This document shows, piece after piece, positions 1 through 4,389 of a stretch of DNA of 4,389 nt. Both the position numbers and the translations under genes were made by a program. The notes below the pieces were generated by a model. It ran no database searches. It had not been told where the DNA came from and saw nothing but the letters and a program-made list of their open reading frames with translations. This DNA is from a virus (Duplodnaviria; Heunggongvirae; Uroviricota; Caudoviricetes): IMG/VR virus record IMGVR_UViG_2531839666_000025, positions 1 through 4,389 of that record, one strand, 5' to 3'. The first letter of the stretch is position 1. Each line of letters opens with the position of its first letter.

Positions 1-673
1 TTATTCCTGTGCCCAGCCAACCCTGTATGCCAGGATCTCATCCGCACTGCTCAGCGATTCCAGGTCCTTCTTCATGGTGCGCTGGCGAATGTGGATTTCC
101 ATCCCTTTAGTGAACATCGCCTGCTCTGCCGCTTCACTCAGCGCAATAAGCTCTTCTGCTGTCACCGGCACATCATTGTTTTCCGCATCCGTCCAGAAAA
201 ACGCCTCCGGCAGTTTCCCCGCTTTCGCTGCCGCCACCGACGGCTCAAGACGCGTCTGCGTTGACTTCCCGTAGTCCCATTTACGCCCATTGTGCTCAAA
301 CGTGTAGTTCGCCGCTTCCATCTCATTACGCCAGGCGTTAATTTCATCGCCCTTCATCCCGCGCGCTTTCTCCGCGGTCAGCAGGTCCGTGATTTTCTCC
401 CCGTCAAAAACCCCAGCGCCCCGAGATGTCAGCTTTGCGGTTTTCTTCCGTATCCGCCACCTCCACCACACTCTGGCCCACTGGCCACAGAACTGACGCC
501 ACCCTGCCGATGCCGGTAATGACTCCGGCACTGTTATAAACCACCTTCAGCGTCTCTGCTGAAAATAACGACTGACACTCATACCAGTCCTGACCATCCT
601 CTGATTTCAGGTACATCGCACCCGGCACATCCGGATTTTCCGGCGTGTATTGTCTGAAATTCTTTATGTGCAT
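1..673 (-). pseudogene. tfa: Tail fibre assembly protein (P2 gpG / Tfa chaperone family), reading frame broken by a 1-nt indel; intact equivalent would be about 223 aa
   Basis: Two overlapping minus-strand ORFs (673..404, 89 aa; 531..1, 176 aa) together resemble one Tfa. The first matches my recollection of the P2 gpG N-terminal region (SEDGQDWYE...KVVYNSAG...SVVEVADTEENRKADISGRWGF). The second matches the conserved C-terminal region of the tfa at 2905..3495 (INAWRNEME...RLEP...FFWTDAENNDV...). ATG at 673 is preceded by GGGAGGA with an 8-nt spacer; stop at 1..3. Confidence 0.75.
406..414 (-). other. Homopolymer tract (plus CCCC/AAAAA, minus TTTTTGGGG) where the tfa-1 frame switches
   Basis: Minus strand reads TGG GGT TTT TGA (W G F stop) in the upstream frame and GTT TTT GAC GGG GAG AAA (V F D G E K) in the downstream frame. 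Removing one T from the T5 run gives a continuous ...GRWGFDGEKITDLL... matching P2 gpG ...GKWMFKDGAVV... as I recall it. Confidence 0.7.
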
Positions 674-714
674 CTGTAAGTCCTCCCGGTTACATATCTG
701 ACAGGTGATGCGCT

Positions 715-2448
715 TTATAACGAAAAATACTCACGCCCCGGCGCTCCTGACGACACATACTCACCAACACCAACGGTGCGCCAGTGAGAGCCATCAAACG
801 TCATCTGCAGCGGCCTGTAGTAAATCGTTGTAACACGGCTGACGCCGCCCTGAGTGTTCCCCGAAAGCCCTGTAATGACTGAACCATCAGCCAGATTAAC
901 TGACCAGCCATGGTCCCCCTCCTGCAACTCATACGTTACCGGATTCCCCAGCCTGAAGCCCATGACACGACTCTTCCCGTCATCTCCTGATGCCCCCGGC
1001 GGCCCCATCGGCCCGGTTTCTCCACGCTCACCTCTGGGACCGGGGTCGCCTTTCTCCCCTTTCGGTCCCTGCGCTCCCCGCGGACCAGCGGGGCCTGTTG
1101 CTCCCGTTTCACCTTTCGGACCCTGTGCTCCGGGGTCGCCTTTCTCTCCTTTCGGACCGGGAACACCACCTCCTGCTGCAGCCTCTTCTGCCTTTGTTTT
1201 CGCTTCATTTGCCACATCCATTGCCGCCTTCACGGCCTTCGGCGTGGCTGCCTTTGTTTCGTCATTACTGCCAGTATCACTGCTTAACTGCACCACACCT
1301 TTCTGCGTCGTGCTGGCATCCCGCTGGCTGACCGTATCCGGTTTGTTTTTTGTGCTGTAATCCACCCGCCAGTGGAAATACTGTGTGTCGCCGTAAACCG
1401 TACAGGTACAGACCGTGCCATTAATAAACCCCGTTGCACCGTATTCGCCAATGGTGACCCGGACTATGGCAGCCTCATACGTCCCCATCACCTCAATGAC
1501 ACAGCCACCCAGATTGAGTTTTCCCGGTCCGACATCCGTGATGACTTTATTCATTGACGCAGGCAGTGATGCCTTCATCATCCAGTAAGGCTGGTCAAAT
1601 GCCCCTTTTTCTTTCAGCCAGGCGACAAACTCGCTCGTGGTCCATTCACCGGCCCCCGTATGAATGTCCCGCCCGTATACTCTGGCTGCTCCCACGGTGT
1701 TCAGAAACTTCACCTTATCCGGGATATCGTCACCGTTTTTCGCTTTCTCCAGGCATCCGTCCGCTTTGTCCATTGCCGCTTTCACCGCTTTCGGGGTGGC
1801 TGCCTTCGTTTCATCATCACTGTCCGTTGCGCTGCTTAACTGCACAATTCCCTTCTGTGCCGTCGTCGCATCCGGTCCTCCCGGCTCGCCTTTTTCGCCC
1901 TTCTCTCCCCGTTCACCTTTCACACCCTGAAGCCCCTGTGGTCCTGTCTCACCACGCTCACCCTTTGGCCCCCGCTCGCCGGTATCGCCTTTTGGCCCGG
2001 GAATACCCTGCGGCCCGGTGTCCCCCTTATCCCCCTTCGGTCCCCGCGCATTCTCTGCCCGTTTTTTTGCCTCCTCCGCACTGGCTGCGGACGCTTCCGC
2101 ACGTTTCAGGATTTCCGCTGCCACCGCTTCCAGCTCTGCAAGGGCTTTCGGGTAATACTGTGCGTCTTCCAGGTCCATCAGAAATTTATTCAGCGTTCCC
2201 GGTGCAGAATCCGCCTTCACCAGAATGTCACCCACATATGACGGCGCGTACCCTTCCGTGTTCAGCGTCACCCGGTACAACCCCGGCTCAACATCCATAC
2301 TGTAACTGCCGGTTTCCCCCGGCTGACCATACGCCACCGTGGTGACAATCACCGTCTCCGTTGTGCGGCGCGCTTTCAGCTCTATCGTGCATCCCGGTAC
2401 CGCTTTTCCCGTACCATCCTTCAGCACACCCGATATTCTGACTGTCAT
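715..2448 (-). CDS. stf: Side tail fibre protein, 577 aa: lambda Stf-like N-terminal domain, two collagen-like Gly-X-Y tracts, two tail-fibre repeat motifs, a central globular domain and a short C-terminal domain
   Basis: N-terminus [28 protein letters not shown] resembles lambda Stf [28 protein letters not shown] (from memory). Uninterrupted Gly-X-Y at aa 136-192 and 428-491. Motif [30 protein letters not shown] occurs twice (aa 196-228, 380-412). ATG at 2448..2446 preceded by GGGGGA; TAA at 717..715. Confidence 0.9.
976..1167 (-). repeat. Collagen-like Gly-X-Y coding tract 2 (about 21 triplets, stf aa 428-491)
   Basis: Translation [64 protein letters not shown] with Gly at every third position. 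The proline-rich plus-strand ORFs here are its antisense shadow. Confidence 0.9.
1213..1311 (-). repeat. Tail-fibre repeat motif, copy 2 (stf aa 380-412), a diverged direct repeat of 1765..1863
   Basis: [33 protein letters not shown]. At DNA level, ...ccattgccgccttcacggccttcggcgtggctgcctttgtttc... here parallels ...ccattgccgctttcaccgctttcggggtggctgccttcgtttc... in copy 1. Confidence 0.85.
1765..1863 (-). repeat. Tail-fibre repeat motif, copy 1 (stf aa 196-228)
   Basis: [33 protein letters not shown]; same motif as in lambda Stf ([28 protein letters not shown], from memory). Confidence 0.85.
1873..2043 (-). repeat. Collagen-like Gly-X-Y coding tract 1 (about 19 triplets, stf aa 136-192)
   Basis: Translation [57 protein letters not shown] with Gly at every third position. 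Confidence 0.9.
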
Positions 2449-2453
2449 GGATT

Positions 2454-2459
2454 TCCCCC
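2454..2459 (-). promoter_or_regulatory. Probable Shine-Dalgarno sequence of stf
   Basis: Minus strand GGGGGA followed by AATCC then ATG (2448). Confidence 0.5.
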
Positions 2460-2461
2460 AT

Positions 2462-2496
2462 AAAAAAACCGCAGTACCGGTTTCCCGGCCTGCGGT
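2462..2496 (-). terminator. Intrinsic (rho-independent) terminator, probable 3' end of the hok-like transcript
   Basis: Minus strand ACCGCAG-GCCGG-GAAA-CCGGuA-CUGCGGU followed by UUUUUUU: outer 7-bp stem, inner 4-bp CCGG/CCGG stem, GAAA tetraloop, then a T7 run. The T-tract ends 13 nt before the stf ATG. Confidence 0.7.
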
Positions 2497-2559
2497 AAAA
2501 TTTGTGGTTTGTTGGTGTTAAAACGGTGCCATCCGGCTGACCACCCTCAGCAACCGGTC

Positions 2560-2582
2560 GGCGGGGGATATTCTCCCCCGCC
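2560..2582. repeat. Perfect 9-bp GC-rich inverted repeat with a 5-nt loop, in the 3' untranslated region of the hok-like gene
   Basis: Plus strand GGCGGGGGA-TATTC-TCCCCCGCC (2560-2568 pairs with 2574-2582). No adjacent T-run on either strand, so it is more likely a structural or stability element than a terminator. Confidence 0.5.
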
Positions 2583-2590
2583 ACGGTTTC

Positions 2591-2731
2591 TTACTGCTTA
2601 CACTGTAAGAACGCCGCAATCTCCGCGCCCGCTATCCGGAACCGGAACTCGCACAGTGAACTGTGGGTGATCCAGATAATGAGCACTACCGTGATACAAA
2701 TCACGGTGGTTTTTAACGGTTTTTGCGACAT
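2591..2731 (-). CDS. hok: Hok/Gef-family type I toxin, 46 aa (small single-pass membrane peptide)
   Basis: Hand translation of the minus strand gives MSQKPLKTTVICITVVLIIWITHSSLCEFRFRIAGAEIAAFLQCKQ. It has a hydrophobic helix (TVICITVVLIIWIT) followed by the Hok hallmark SLCE..R.....E(I/V)AAF..(C/Y)K; compare R1 Hok ...[28 protein letters not shown], recalled from memory. ATG at 2731..2729 preceded by AAGGAG with a 9-nt spacer; TAA at 2593..2591. Not in the supplied ORF track. Confidence 0.8.
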   Translation of the reverse strand: MSQKPLKTTVICITVVLIIWITHSSLCEFRFRIAGAEIAAFLQCKQ

Positions 2732-2740
2732 AAACGCTTG

Positions 2741-2746
2741 CTCCTT
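2741..2746 (-). promoter_or_regulatory. Shine-Dalgarno sequence of hok (AAGGAG) with an adjacent anti-SD
   Basis: Minus strand CCUCUCC-GUAAAA-GGAG-CAAGCGUUU-AUG. The CUCC immediately upstream can pair with GGAG (plus-strand palindrome ctcc-ttttac-ggag, 2741..2754). Confidence 0.6.
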
Positions 2747-2876
2747 TTACGGAGAGGCGCTAACCTTTCACTTGCTTAGGATGAATGGTCAGGCCTCGGG
2801 TTAAACATGAATGTTTGTCCGGGGCCTTTTCACATCCGGCCTTCAGGTGTTCCCTCCGGCCATCAGCCAAAGGCAC

Positions 2877-2898
2877 CCGTGCATAATGTACGGTTTTT
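2877..2898 (+). terminator. Candidate plus-strand intrinsic terminator, possibly the 3' end of an antisense (Sok-like) RNA; speculative
   Basis: Plus strand CCGUGCA-UAA-UGUACGG (7-bp stem with one G-U pair, 3-nt loop) followed by UUUUUAUU. It lies antisense to the predicted hok leader, immediately beyond the tfa-2 stop. No convincing promoter found upstream. Confidence 0.3.
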
Positions 2899-2904
2899 AT
2901 TCTG

Positions 2905-3495
2905 TTACGTAAATACCGGCTCCTCACTCCCCCAGCCGGGCTGATAGCACAGTACATCACGGTATCGCGTCATCCCCGCAATCTCCTGTTTCATCTGTCG
3001 CTGTCTTTCGTGGATCCTGAAACCGTGCGCCACCATCGCCTGTTTCATGGCAACACCCAGCGCCTTCAGTTCATCAGCGTCTACCGCCACATCATGATTA
3101 TCCGCATCTGTCCAGAAAAAACGTTCCGGTAAATGTTCTGTCACTGCAAGCACGGGCTCCAGACGGCTCAGTGAGCGCTTACCTGCATCCCAGCGTCGCC
3201 CCTGCCATTCAAACACAATTTCTTTATTTTCTTCCTCATTTCTCCAGATGTTAATCCTGTCGCATGCCTTCTCTTTTTCCTTTTCCAGCATATCCTGACT
3301 TTCACGCCACGGTGTCACCGCTCCATACTGACCACCGGCAATGGCGGCAAACAGTTCACGCCATATCACATCGGGATCATGCGGCATCACAACGATATCC
3401 ATCCAGCACTCCCCCGACGGTAACTTCATTTCAGCATGAATGTTTCCGCTTTCGTCATACCTCGCATGACGGATTTCTGTAACGATCTCCGGCAC
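2905..3495 (-). CDS. tfa: Tail fibre assembly protein (Tfa chaperone family), 196 aa, apparently intact
   Basis: C-terminal two-thirds (DRINIWRNEEE...RLEPVLAVTEHLPERFFWTDADNHDVAVDADELKALG...) is paralogous to tfa-1; the N-terminal about 85 aa differs. GTG start at 3495..3493, 9 nt after the upstream stop, preceded by AAGGGGGG; TAA at 2907..2905. Confidence 0.88.
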   Translation of the reverse strand: MPEIVTEIRHARYDESGNIHAEMKLPSGECWMDIVVMPHDPDVIWRELFAAIAGGQYGAVTPWRESQDMLEKEKEKACDRINIWRNEEENKEIVFEWQGRRWDAGKRSLSRLEPVLAVTEHLPERFFWTDADNHDVAVDADELKALGVAMKQAMVAHGFRIHERQRQMKQEIAGMTRYRDVLCYQPGWGSEEPVFT

Positions 3496-3504
3496 AATCC
3501 CCCC

Positions 3505-4389
3505 TTAAAGCACATGAACCTTCTCATTTCCTGCCCGGAATAACGTGCCACCGTTACATAGAACGCTGATCGTCACGCGACAGTTATAATTCAGGGGGTT
3601 ATGAAAGGCGCGCACGTAACGATACCGGACATAAATCCGGTTGCGGTTTCCCCTCCCCTTTGCCGGAAGCGTGAATCTGTAAATCCAGTCATAATTTTCC
3701 CACACCTTATGCTTCAAATTCCCGGGCCCCCATTCTCCTGACGACCAGACAGTGGCAATTCCACCATCTGCACTATCAGTGCCGACACTGACTTCCCACC
3801 AGGCAGAAACAAGACCAGGATTGCCCTCAGCTCTGAAGGCTATCTTCATGTTAACATCAAAAAAACGATCGAAGTTTTCCCCGTCAACATTCAGAAAAGG
3901 GATCCATTCGTTATCTCTCTCCTTTACACCATCCCGTGAGCTGACACCACTGAACACAACTTTATTGATTTCAAACAGGGAGCGGTAATAAACATCGCCA
4001 AGAATATTACCGGCATCCACTGTTCCTTTAACGACGCAGTTTTCTGCAATGGTCACGTTATTCAGCGTGCCCGAGTTCGCACTGATATGTCCGCTGATGT
4101 CCGCATTACGGGCCGTCAGCCTGCCGTCCGGCGTCAGGGAGAACGTCGGGGGATTGCCGGACGAGGTGATGCTCACCGCAAACAACCGCTTCAGGAACAC
4201 ATCGTTCATGAACAGCTGATTCCCCTGCGCCACAAACAGCGGCGTGGTGTTGCCGTTCTCCGGGTTAATCATCGCGATACGGTCCGCCTGCAGCAGTATA
4301 TTGCTCAGGGGCTGGCCATCAGCATCCTCAATCCCCGCACCTATACCGGCAACATACGGAATGCCGTTTTTTGTTTCTGCACCTTCAGC
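3505..4389 (-). CDS. J: Host specificity / central tail fibre protein (lambda gpJ-like), C-terminal 294 codons; N-terminus lies beyond the window
   Basis: The frame is open from the window edge ([17 protein letters not shown]...) through the track ORF to TAA at 3507..3505. The segment [22 protein letters not shown]...[38 protein letters not shown] matches my recollection of lambda J ([18 protein letters not shown]...[41 protein letters not shown]). The last about 190 aa do not resemble the lambda J C-terminus. Confidence 0.8.

What the first reader, a model, noticed from the sequence alone, without database searches (positions are those of the whole stretch)
2905..4389. Tfa-type chaperone gene directly downstream of a J-like central fibre with a non-lambda C-terminal domain
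In lambda, as I recall, J is followed by lom and then stf-tfa, and J needs no Tfa-type chaperone. Here the J-like protein keeps the conserved FVAQGNQ...NDVFLKRL...NVTIAENC segment, but its last about 190 aa are different and are followed 9 nt later by a tfa whose N-terminal domain differs from tfa-1. This suggests the receptor-binding end of the central fibre was replaced by a fibre-type module that brought its own chaperone, implying a different receptor and a mosaic junction near 3990..4040.
Basis: partly seen in the sequence, partly recalled or inferred. Interest (0 to 1): 0.55.

Follow-up and report, generated by a model that had tools for sequence, protein, structure and literature searches.

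The report
J tail-tip domain swapped with chaperone gene
A lambda-like E. coli prophage has swapped the receptor-binding end of its central tail fibre (J) for a rare, unrelated domain that arrived with its own small fibre-chaperone-type gene, a two-gene cassette that probably changes which bacteria the phage can attack.

Summary
All genes are on the minus strand. The last 294 aa of a genuine lambda-type J protein (3505-4389) are followed 9 nt later by a 196-aa gene (2905-3495). Then come hok/sok, a collagen-like side fibre and a second, frameshifted chaperone gene.

J matches lambda J 869-997 at 67% identity. Similarity then stops, and the last ~160 aa match no lambda sequence. Against the closest E. 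coli prophages (98% identical flanks), exactly 2899-4021 is replaced: the last 172 aa of J, the spacer and tfa-2.

This J end is absent from 5,426 complete E. coli genomes and 50,697 phage records. Five diverged lineages carry it (E. coli and four Salmonella). Each has a DUF4376 gene directly after J.

tfa-2 is a DUF4376 protein, a family with experimentally shown fibre chaperones. It is not a lambda Tfa (Caudo_TAP) relative.

Every detectable homologue is the end of a J protein, and distant homologues (~28% identity) have no chaperone gene.

Best reading, at 0.6 confidence: a two-gene receptor-binding cassette with a cognate chaperone or cap. This is a new variant of known kinds and of moderate interest.

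The parts
4022..4389 (-). Conserved J stalk segment (central straight fibre, Phage_Tail_Tip). It is shared with lambda J and with neighbouring E. coli prophages. The gene continues upstream of the window.
   Evidence: Pfam PF09327 and NCBIfam lambda_TipJ match. 67% identical to lambda J 869-997. 97.6% DNA identity to E. coli KY176 J.
3505..4021 (-). Variable C-terminal receptor-binding end of J: the last 172 aa plus the stop codon at 3505-3507. Lambda similarity ends at about 3991. The predicted fold is an all-beta jelly-roll-like sandwich.
   Evidence: No match in 5,426 complete E. coli genomes or 50,697 phage records. Close homologues occur only in E. coli and Salmonella J proteins. AF2 model pLDDT 76, pTM 0.75. 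Fold hits are to fibre-tip, TNF-like and CBM jelly rolls at TM 0.3-0.42. GC is 47.6% against 56% in the flanks.
3496..3504 (-). 9-nt spacer between the J stop and the tfa-2 start. It carries a G-rich Shine-Dalgarno-like run (TAA GGGGGGATT GTG).
   Evidence: Read directly from the sequence. No promoter-like or minus-strand terminator-like site lies between the genes.
2905..3495 (-). tfa-2, a 196-aa DUF4376 protein. It has a variable N-terminal beta domain (about residues 1-64, 3304-3495) and a conserved helical DUF4376 domain (residues 74-174, 2974-3276).
   Evidence: Pfam PF14301 E 2.2e-17. phrog_1141 matches over the full length, E 5e-57. AF2 pLDDT 92. 70 homologue clusters found.
2899..4021 (.). 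The swapped two-gene cassette (J C-terminal domain plus tfa-2). It is bounded by DNA 98% identical to prophages that carry a 545-bp block with a J end only.
   Evidence: blastn of the window against L001 and L002. Annotation of L001.
2591..2878 (-). hok/sok-like type I toxin-antitoxin module. The Hok/Gef ORF is at 2591-2731 and the sok-like RNA match is at 2720-2878. It lies in the conserved flank and is not part of the cassette.
   Evidence: Pfam HOK_GEF E 2.4e-11. Rfam RF01794 at 55 bits, just under the gathering score of 59.
715..2448 (-). Collagen-like side tail fibre, 577 aa.
   Evidence: Pfam phage_tail_N, Phage_fiber_2 and Collagen. 98% DNA identity to KY176.
1..673 (-). tfa-1, a side-fibre chaperone with a Tfa-like N-domain and a DUF4376 domain. 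In this window a +1 frameshift splits it into ORFs 404-673 and 1-531.
   Evidence: Alignment to intact 672-bp genes shows one extra T in a T run. PHROG and Pfam hits.

Best explanation
The window holds a two-gene receptor-binding cassette in a lambda-like E. coli prophage. Homologous recombination in the conserved J stalk (near 3991-4022) and just downstream of tfa-2 (2898/2899) exchanged the ordinary J end for a rare ~160-aa jelly-roll-type domain plus a translationally coupled DUF4376 gene.

The proposed mechanism is an inference. tfa-2 trimerises through its conserved helical DUF4376 domain. It uses its variable N-terminal beta domain to grip the C-terminal domain of the three J chains. This nucleates or stabilises trimer folding from the distal end, and tfa-2 may stay on as a removable cap. 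DUF4376 and Tfa chaperones are reported to work this way on side fibres.

The new J end then sets a receptor specificity different from LamB-type J proteins. tfa-2 belongs to a family that normally serves side fibres, so here a side-fibre-type chaperone has been recruited to the central fibre.
For: **Shown**
- The cassette boundaries enclose exactly the J end and tfa-2. Relatives with 98%-identical flanks and side fibre lack tfa-2, so the side fibre does not need it.
- Five lineages have J ends only 42-87% identical to each other: E. coli and Salmonella L003, L004, L020 and L129. Each has an intact DUF4376 gene between a 13-nt overlap and 17 nt after J.
- J-end identity tracks identity of the tfa N-domain (Pearson 0.96) and not that of the tfa C-domain (Pearson 0.57, Spearman 0.29). 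For the window, L003 and L020 the nearest N-domain relative is another J-adjacent protein, with narrow margins for the window and L004.
- tfa-2 carries PF14301 and a confident two-domain model.
- The 9-nt spacer has an SD-like run and no intervening promoter-like or terminator-like site.
- A Yersinia pestis J with yet another C-terminus is followed 2 nt later by a DUF4376 gene.

**From the literature**
- DUF4376 proteins encoded downstream of fibre genes are needed for functional fibres in Alteromonas phage V22 and in a Campylobacter prophage. They were proposed to act as transient caps (PMC7289586, PMC10579305, PMC7882524).
- The Tfa model has a variable N-domain that binds the fibre and a conserved C-domain that trimerises. 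The Pam3 chaperone caps a TNF-like tip (PMC9608196).
Against: - No direct test of a J-tfa-2 interaction was possible.
- Distant J-end homologues (P0079 group, ~28% identity) have no DUF4376 gene downstream. The fold therefore does not always need such a partner.
- The N-domain correlation could come from physical linkage alone. The N-domain DNA lies next to the J end, and the 10 pairs compared are not independent.
- The tfa-2 N-domain is only slightly closer to J-adjacent proteins (36-39%) than to side-fibre-adjacent ones (33-35%).
- The tfa-2 model has no significant match to any solved structure, TfaMu included.
- Phage A5 fibres fold without their DUF4376 partner (PMC10579305).
Confidence: 0.6

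Rival explanations
1. tfa-2 is the receptor-binding adhesin itself, or a co-adhesin. It stays bound to the J tip in the virion and contacts the host. This would resemble T2/T6 gp38 on gp37, pb5 on pb4 in T5, or the small proteins encoded downstream of J in small siphoviruses.
For: - The locus directly downstream of J-like genes is where separate tip proteins are encoded in other siphoviruses (PMC11990801, PMC12309495).
- TfaMu is reported to remain on the Mu fibre (PMC7882524).
- Adjacency is tight and conserved.
Against: - Most of tfa-2 is the conserved DUF4376 helical domain, which is shared at 48% identity with the side-fibre chaperone tfa-1. That is not expected of a specificity determinant.
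- Its variable part is only ~64 aa.
- J already ends in a full-sized jelly-roll domain that resembles fibre tips and sugar-binding modules.
Confidence: 0.15
2. tfa-2 is a hitch-hiker with no role for J. It would be a leftover of the recombination that brought in the J end, for example from a donor in which a side fibre was lost, or a spare chaperone for the side fibre.
For: - About 64 of the ~90 tfa-2-like genes found in unbiased scans follow phage_tail_N side fibres, not J.
- Distant J-end homologues lack it.
- DUF4376 genes recombine freely. The L020 C-domain is 80% identical to a side-fibre-adjacent gene.
Against: - The gene is intact and keeps its position in five lineages, with protein divergence down to 30-40% identity. 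This argues for selection.
- Relatives with the same side fibre and tfa-1 do without it.
- Spacings from a 13-nt overlap to 17 nt fit co-translation with J.
Confidence: 0.15
3. One reading: the J end is a side-fibre tip that was grafted onto J together with its chaperone, for instance by a deletion fusing J to the distal part of stf.
For: - The chaperone family is otherwise a side-fibre family.
- The predicted fold resembles trimeric fibre tips, including Bd1399, the cyanophage A-1(L) short-fibre domain and TNF-like folds.
Against: - All sequence homologues of the domain are J termini.
- No similarity was found to 11 clusters of side-fibre tips that precede tfa-2-like genes (hhalign probability below 1%), nor to three individual fibres.
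- The best viral fold hits include J-type central-fibre proteins.
Confidence: 0.1

Closest known systems
Lambda gpJ (tip attachment / host specificity protein J)
   Same: Same protein family and the same place in the tail operon. The stalk segment is 67% identical to lambda J 869-997. Full-length relatives have the gpJ domain architecture. The exchange point is where the receptor-binding domain begins.
   Different: Lambda J ends in an Ig-like domain that binds LamB (PF12421; PMC11101478) and is followed by lom. This J ends in an unrelated ~160-aa domain with no PF12421 match and is followed by a DUF4376 gene.
DUF4376 fibre chaperones: Alteromonas phage V22 gp27 and A5 gp9, and the Campylobacter CJIE1 H-fibre partner
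   Same: The same Pfam domain sits in the C-terminal part, with a variable N-terminal part, and the gene lies immediately downstream of the receptor-binding gene. Those proteins were shown to be needed for functional fibres, or were proposed as transient caps (PMC7289586, PMC10579305, PMC7882524).
   Different: Those serve lateral or baseplate fibres of myo- and podoviruses and tailocins. Here the upstream partner is the central fibre J of a siphovirus.
Tfa family (Caudo_TAP, PF02413): lambda Tfa, Mu U (TfaMu), P2 G
   Same: The proposed logic is the same: a small protein encoded after the fibre gene, with a fibre-binding N-domain and a trimerising helical C-domain (PMC9608196). tfa-1-type relatives combine PF02413 and PF14301 in one protein.
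   Different: tfa-2 has no PF02413 match, no similarity to lambda Tfa, and no sequence or Foldseek match to solved Tfa structures.
Separate tip proteins encoded downstream of J-like genes (T5 pb5; caps in Dhillonvirus, Traversvirus and small BASEL siphoviruses)
   Same: A gene directly after the central-fibre gene is likely to act at the fibre tip (PMC11990801, PMC12309495).
   Different: Those J proteins lack a terminal binding domain, and the partner is an Ig-like or 'hand-like' binder. Here J keeps a terminal domain and the partner is a chaperone-family protein.
Pam3 gp24-gp25 (myocyanophage fibre and chaperone)
   Same: A TNF-like jelly-roll tip capped by a trimeric chaperone with beta 'tentacles' and a helical bundle (PMC9608196). 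This is the nearest structural analogy to the pairing proposed here.
   Different: It is a side fibre of a myovirus. No sequence relationship was shown.

Membership tests
Lambda-type tip attachment protein J | Domain architecture FNIII-A_GpJ, Phage-tail_3, Ig_J, Ig_J_second, Phage_Tail_Tip | tested here: met
   Only Phage_Tail_Tip is visible in the window. Contigs 99% identical over the overlap give a 1184-aa protein with the full architecture.
Lambda-type tip attachment protein J | Position after the tape-measure, M, L, K and I tail genes | tested here: met
   Loci L005 and L006. The same order is seen in the Salmonella loci.
Lambda-type tip attachment protein J | C-terminal Ig-like receptor-binding domain (PF12421 Ig_GpJ_C) | tested here: not met
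   No PF12421 hit. No similarity to lambda J after residue 997. Phage 1720a-02 J, with the same stalk, does have PF12421.
Lambda-type tip attachment protein J | NCBIfam lambda_TipJ whole-protein score at or above 1950 bits | not testable with these tools
   Only a 294-aa fragment lies in the window. It scores 216.8 bits over model positions 895-1024.
DUF4376 fibre chaperones (PF14301) | PF14301 domain above the gathering score | tested here: met
   63.9 bits against a cut-off of 25, residues 74-174.
DUF4376 fibre chaperones (PF14301) | Encoded immediately downstream of the receptor-binding fibre gene | tested here: met
   9 nt after J. The same holds in four Salmonella lineages and, with another J end, in Yersinia.
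DUF4376 fibre chaperones (PF14301) | Two modules: a variable N-terminal domain and a conserved helical C-terminal domain | tested here: met
   AF2 model with beta strands at 7-36 and long helices at 67-89 and 140-174, pLDDT 92. The N-domain is 30-39% identical and the C-domain 40-54% identical across the J-adjacent lineages.
DUF4376 fibre chaperones (PF14301) | Required for folding or activity of the partner fibre | not testable with these tools
   This needs co-expression or genetics. No multimer prediction was available.
Tfa / Caudo_TAP (PF02413; lambda Tfa, Mu U) | PF02413 domain, or detectable similarity to lambda Tfa or TfaMu | tested here: not met
   No PF02413 hit. BLASTP against lambda orf-194 gives nothing. 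A profile search of PDB sequences gives nothing. The Foldseek PDB search gives no hit at E below 0.001.
Side tail fibre (Stf, phage_tail_N) as the identity of the upstream gene | phage_tail_N N-terminus, collagen or fibre repeats, and a tip homologous to known Stf tips | tested here: not met
   The upstream gene is J. Its end has no similarity to Stf tips.

The most novel reading that the evidence does not exclude
A side-fibre-type DUF4376 chaperone has been recruited to the central tail fibre. J receptor-binding domains of this kind would then travel as two-gene cassettes (domain plus cognate chaperone or cap). This would have happened at least twice, once in E. coli/Salmonella and once in Yersinia. 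It would be the first case of a lambda-type J that depends on a trans-acting fibre chaperone. It would also mean that J-swap engineering has to move both genes.
Probability: 0.5. Interest if true: 0.55.

Novelty: new variant of a known kind. Interest (0 to 1): 0.42.

Why it matters
The end of J decides which outer-membrane structure a lambda-like phage uses to commit to infection, and J-end swaps are a standard way to retarget phages. In lambda, J assembles without a fibre chaperone (established lambda tail-assembly genetics).

If this J end needs, or is capped by, its neighbouring DUF4376 protein, two things follow. Host-range prediction from J alone would be incomplete for such prophages, many of them in Shiga-toxin-type E. 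coli backgrounds and Salmonella. Engineering would also have to transfer the pair.

The locus also illustrates how receptor-binding modules and their helpers move as units between side and central fibres. The receptor itself is unknown. The jelly-roll model's resemblance to sugar-binding modules hints at a glycan target, but only weakly.

Tried and rejected
- **Lambda-type J end in disguise.** BLASTP and hhalign against lambda J 990-1132 found nothing. The motif resemblance I noticed by eye (FDR, PAxGRGN) got no statistical support.
- **Solved relatives of the J end.** A profile search of PDB sequences gave no hit. Foldseek gave only generic jelly-roll matches at TM 0.3-0.42.
- **Side-fibre tip origin.** BLASTP against three fibres, hmmsearch against all upstream ORFs, and hhalign against 11 tip clusters were all negative.
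- **Relation to the J end it replaced, or to the Yersinia J end.** None found.
- **tfa-2 as lambda Tfa or TfaMu.** Rejected.
- **tfa-2 as a Cor/Llp-type exclusion lipoprotein, which is often encoded after J.** Rejected by inspection. It has no signal peptide or hydrophobic segment, and it is a DUF4376 protein.
- **More lineages.** IMG/VR returned only the distant P0079 group. JGI metagenomes returned nothing. Phage records returned nothing.
- **'J' label for L088-L090.** Discarded as an artefact. Those tfa genes are nearly identical to side-fibre-adjacent ones.
- **AFDB50 fold search.** Not available.
- **Census limits.** The protein censuses probably undercount full-length J proteins. The clustered databases returned only short gene calls, so 'rare' rests mainly on the DNA and tblastn searches.

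Full report
**1. What is in the window**

All coding is on the minus strand. Read in the direction of transcription, the genes are:
- The last 294 codons of an ORF that runs off the window (3505-4389).
- A 196-aa ORF (2905-3495).
- A 46-aa Hok/Gef ORF (2591-2731), with an Rfam sok match at 2720-2878 scoring 55 bits against a gathering score of 59.
- A 577-aa collagen-like side fibre (715-2448), with phage_tail_N, Phage_fiber_2 and Collagen domains.
- A second DUF4376 gene, tfa-1 (1-673). Here it is split by one extra T in a T run, compared with intact 672-bp genes in E. coli KY176 and phage 1720a-02.

**2. The upstream gene is J**

- The fragment matches Pfam Phage_Tail_Tip and NCBIfam lambda_TipJ positions 895-1024.
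- It is 67% identical to lambda J 869-997.
- Draft E. coli contigs 99% identical to the window over the overlap give the whole 1184-aa protein. It has the gpJ architecture and sits after the tape-measure, M, L, K and I genes.

**3.

- Similarity to lambda J ends at residue 133 of the fragment, near window position 3991. Nothing after that is significant by BLASTP or hhalign, and there is no PF12421 hit.
- Against the closest complete E. coli genomes, window 1-2898 is 98.2% identical and 4022-4389 is 97.6% identical.
- The 1123 bp between those stretches replace 545 bp that hold only a different J end.
- Against phage 1720a-02 the right breakpoint is at 3991. That phage's J carries the ordinary Ig_GpJ_C domain.
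- The left breakpoint (2898/2899) lies 6 nt beyond the tfa-2 stop codon. The exchanged unit is therefore exactly the J end, the 9-nt spacer and tfa-2.
- Its GC content is 50%, against 56% in the flanks.

**4. Rarity of the J end**

- The 1181-bp block has no megablast match in 5,426 complete E. coli genomes.
- Among 50,697 phage records it has only weak hits to the DUF4376 part of tfa-2. A tblastn search with the J end finds nothing there.
- Protein searches found an E. coli cluster and Salmonella clusters at 43-51% identity.
- An exhaustive HMM search of 1.8 billion representatives added one real distant relative, P0079 (E 1.2e-4). It is a J-like protein carrying Phage-tail_3 and Phage_Tail_Tip.
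- IMG/VR holds only that distant group, and JGI metagenomes hold none.
- Caveat: the clustered protein databases returned short gene calls rather than full-length J proteins, so these censuses undercount.

**5. tfa-2**

- It carries PF14301 (DUF4376) at residues 74-174 and matches phrog_1141 over its full length.
- It has no PF02413 hit, no similarity to lambda Tfa, and no sequence or Foldseek match to any solved structure.
- It shares only its C-terminal 124 residues (68-191) with the tfa-1 type, at 48% identity.
- The AF2 model is confident (pLDDT 92). It shows a small N-terminal beta domain with one helix, followed by a helical domain with a 35-residue helix.
- The literature supports a chaperone role for this family:
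  - V22 gp27 is essential for active fibres.
  - A5 gp9 was proposed to be a transient cap.
  - A Campylobacter H-fibre needs its DUF4376 partner (PMC7289586, PMC10579305, PMC7882524).
- The Tfa model in PMC9608196 assigns fibre binding to the variable N-domain and trimerisation to the conserved helical C-domain.

**6. Linkage of the J end and tfa-2**

- Five lineages carry this J end: E. coli and Salmonella L003, L004, L020 and L129.
- In all five, J is an intact ORF of 1148-1184 aa, and a DUF4376 gene lies between a 13-nt overlap and 17 nt downstream.
- Across the ten lineage pairs, J-end identity (42-87%) correlates with tfa N-domain identity (30-80%; Pearson 0.96, Spearman 0.88). It does not correlate significantly with tfa C-domain identity (Pearson 0.57, Spearman 0.29).
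- This fits co-evolution of the J end with the N-domain. It also fits plain linkage, because the N-domain DNA adjoins the J end, the C-domain visibly recombines with other DUF4376 genes, and the pairs are not independent.
- Relatives with 98%-identical side fibre and tfa-1 lack tfa-2, so the side fibre does not need it.

**7. Where tfa-2 comes from**

- In unbiased scans of GTDB genomes and IMG/VR, I classified the ORF upstream of each tfa-2-like gene. Of the genes that share the tfa-2 N-domain, 64 follow phage_tail_N side fibres and 23 follow other ORFs. Many of those 23 are short fibre-tip ORFs.
- Only one follows a real J. That is Yersinia pestis NCTC5923, where a 1545-aa J with yet another C-terminus is followed 2 nt later by a 210-aa DUF4376 gene.
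- tfa-2 therefore belongs to a side-fibre chaperone family. Placement after J is uncommon and seems to have arisen more than once.

**8. Where the J end comes from**

- Every detectable homologue is a J C-terminus.
- No similarity was found to tips of side fibres that precede tfa-2-like genes, to the J end it replaced, or to the Yersinia J end.
- The AF2 model is an all-beta jelly-roll-like sandwich (pLDDT 76, pTM 0.75, only five sequences in the alignment).
- Its best solved matches are:
  - Bdellovibrio Bd1399;
  - the birnavirus VP2 jelly roll;
  - the cyanophage A-1(L) short-fibre binding domain;
  - TNF;
  - CBM4 modules;
  - a chain of the T1 tail tip.

  All have low TM scores of 0.3-0.42.
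- The best viral models are a Klebsiella phage tail-fibre fragment (21% identity) and a Vibrio phage J central-fibre protein.
- The fold class differs from the Ig-like lambda domain described in PMC11101478. The matches are too weak to name a family.
- The distant P0079-group J proteins (~28% identity in this domain) have no DUF4376 gene downstream. That counts against an obligatory chaperone for this fold.

**9. Interpretation**

- The best-supported reading is a two-gene receptor-binding cassette in which tfa-2 is the cognate chaperone or cap of the new J end (confidence 0.6).
- Shown: the cassette boundaries, the conserved adjacency, family membership, and the fact that tfa-2 is dispensable for the side fibre.
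- Inferred: the physical interaction, the folding role, and the change of receptor.
- Rivals:
  - tfa-2 as a retained adhesin (0.15);
  - tfa-2 as a functionless or side-fibre-related hitch-hiker (0.15);
- I found no paper describing a Tfa or DUF4376 gene paired with a lambda-type J. That library is incomplete, so the absence is weak evidence.

**10. Verdict**

It is a new variant of known kinds (J-end swapping combined with a DUF4376 fibre chaperone) and of moderate interest.

Noticed in passing
window 1-673 (-), insertion in the A run at about 404-409 (+ strand): tfa-1, the side-fibre chaperone gene, carries a +1 frameshift relative to intact 672-bp genes in E. coli KY176 and phage 1720a-02. 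It is either a homopolymer sequencing error or a real pseudogene. No cassette-bearing contig reaches this gene, so this could not be cross-checked.
   Followed up: partly
window 2591-2878 (-): A hok/sok-like type I toxin-antitoxin module lies between tfa-2 and the side fibre. The Hok/Gef ORF scores E 2.4e-11 in Pfam, and the Rfam sok match scores 55 bits, just under the gathering score of 59. Salmonella loci L004 and L020 carry hicAB at the equivalent spot, so this intergenic site looks like a hot spot for toxin-antitoxin morons.
   Followed up: partly
L026 331-5603 (Yersinia pestis NCTC5923): A 1545-aa J protein with a C-terminus unrelated to the window's is followed 2 nt later by a 210-aa DUF4376 gene. 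This looks like an independent second case of J followed by DUF4376.
   Followed up: partly
L111-L126 (IMG/VR prophages, AT-rich, host not determined): One J backbone carries at least three alternative ends. The first is the P0079-type domain, distantly related to the window's. The second is an unrelated ~170-aa end. The third is a truncated J followed by 348-aa and ~515-aa ORFs. L122 also has a DUF4376-like tblastn match about 630 nt downstream of J, with no long ORF called over it.
   Followed up: partly
L020 716-1306 compared with L003 10894-11496 and 13207-13836: DUF4376 genes are themselves mosaic. The L020 J-adjacent gene has an N-domain 72% identical to the L003 J-adjacent gene, but a C-domain 80% identical to the L003 side-fibre-adjacent gene.
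   Followed up: no
window 1217-1321 and 1769-1873: There is an internal ~105-bp duplication at 80% identity within the collagen-like side-fibre gene. It corresponds to the two Phage_fiber_2 repeats that flank the central domain.
   Followed up: no
L018 and L019 2507-3592 (Salmonella): Other Salmonella J proteins (~1040 aa) are followed by 116-aa and 241-aa ORFs with no Pfam match. This recalls the small Ig-like and 'hand-like' tip proteins described for Dhillonvirus and Traversvirus (PMC12309495).
   Followed up: no
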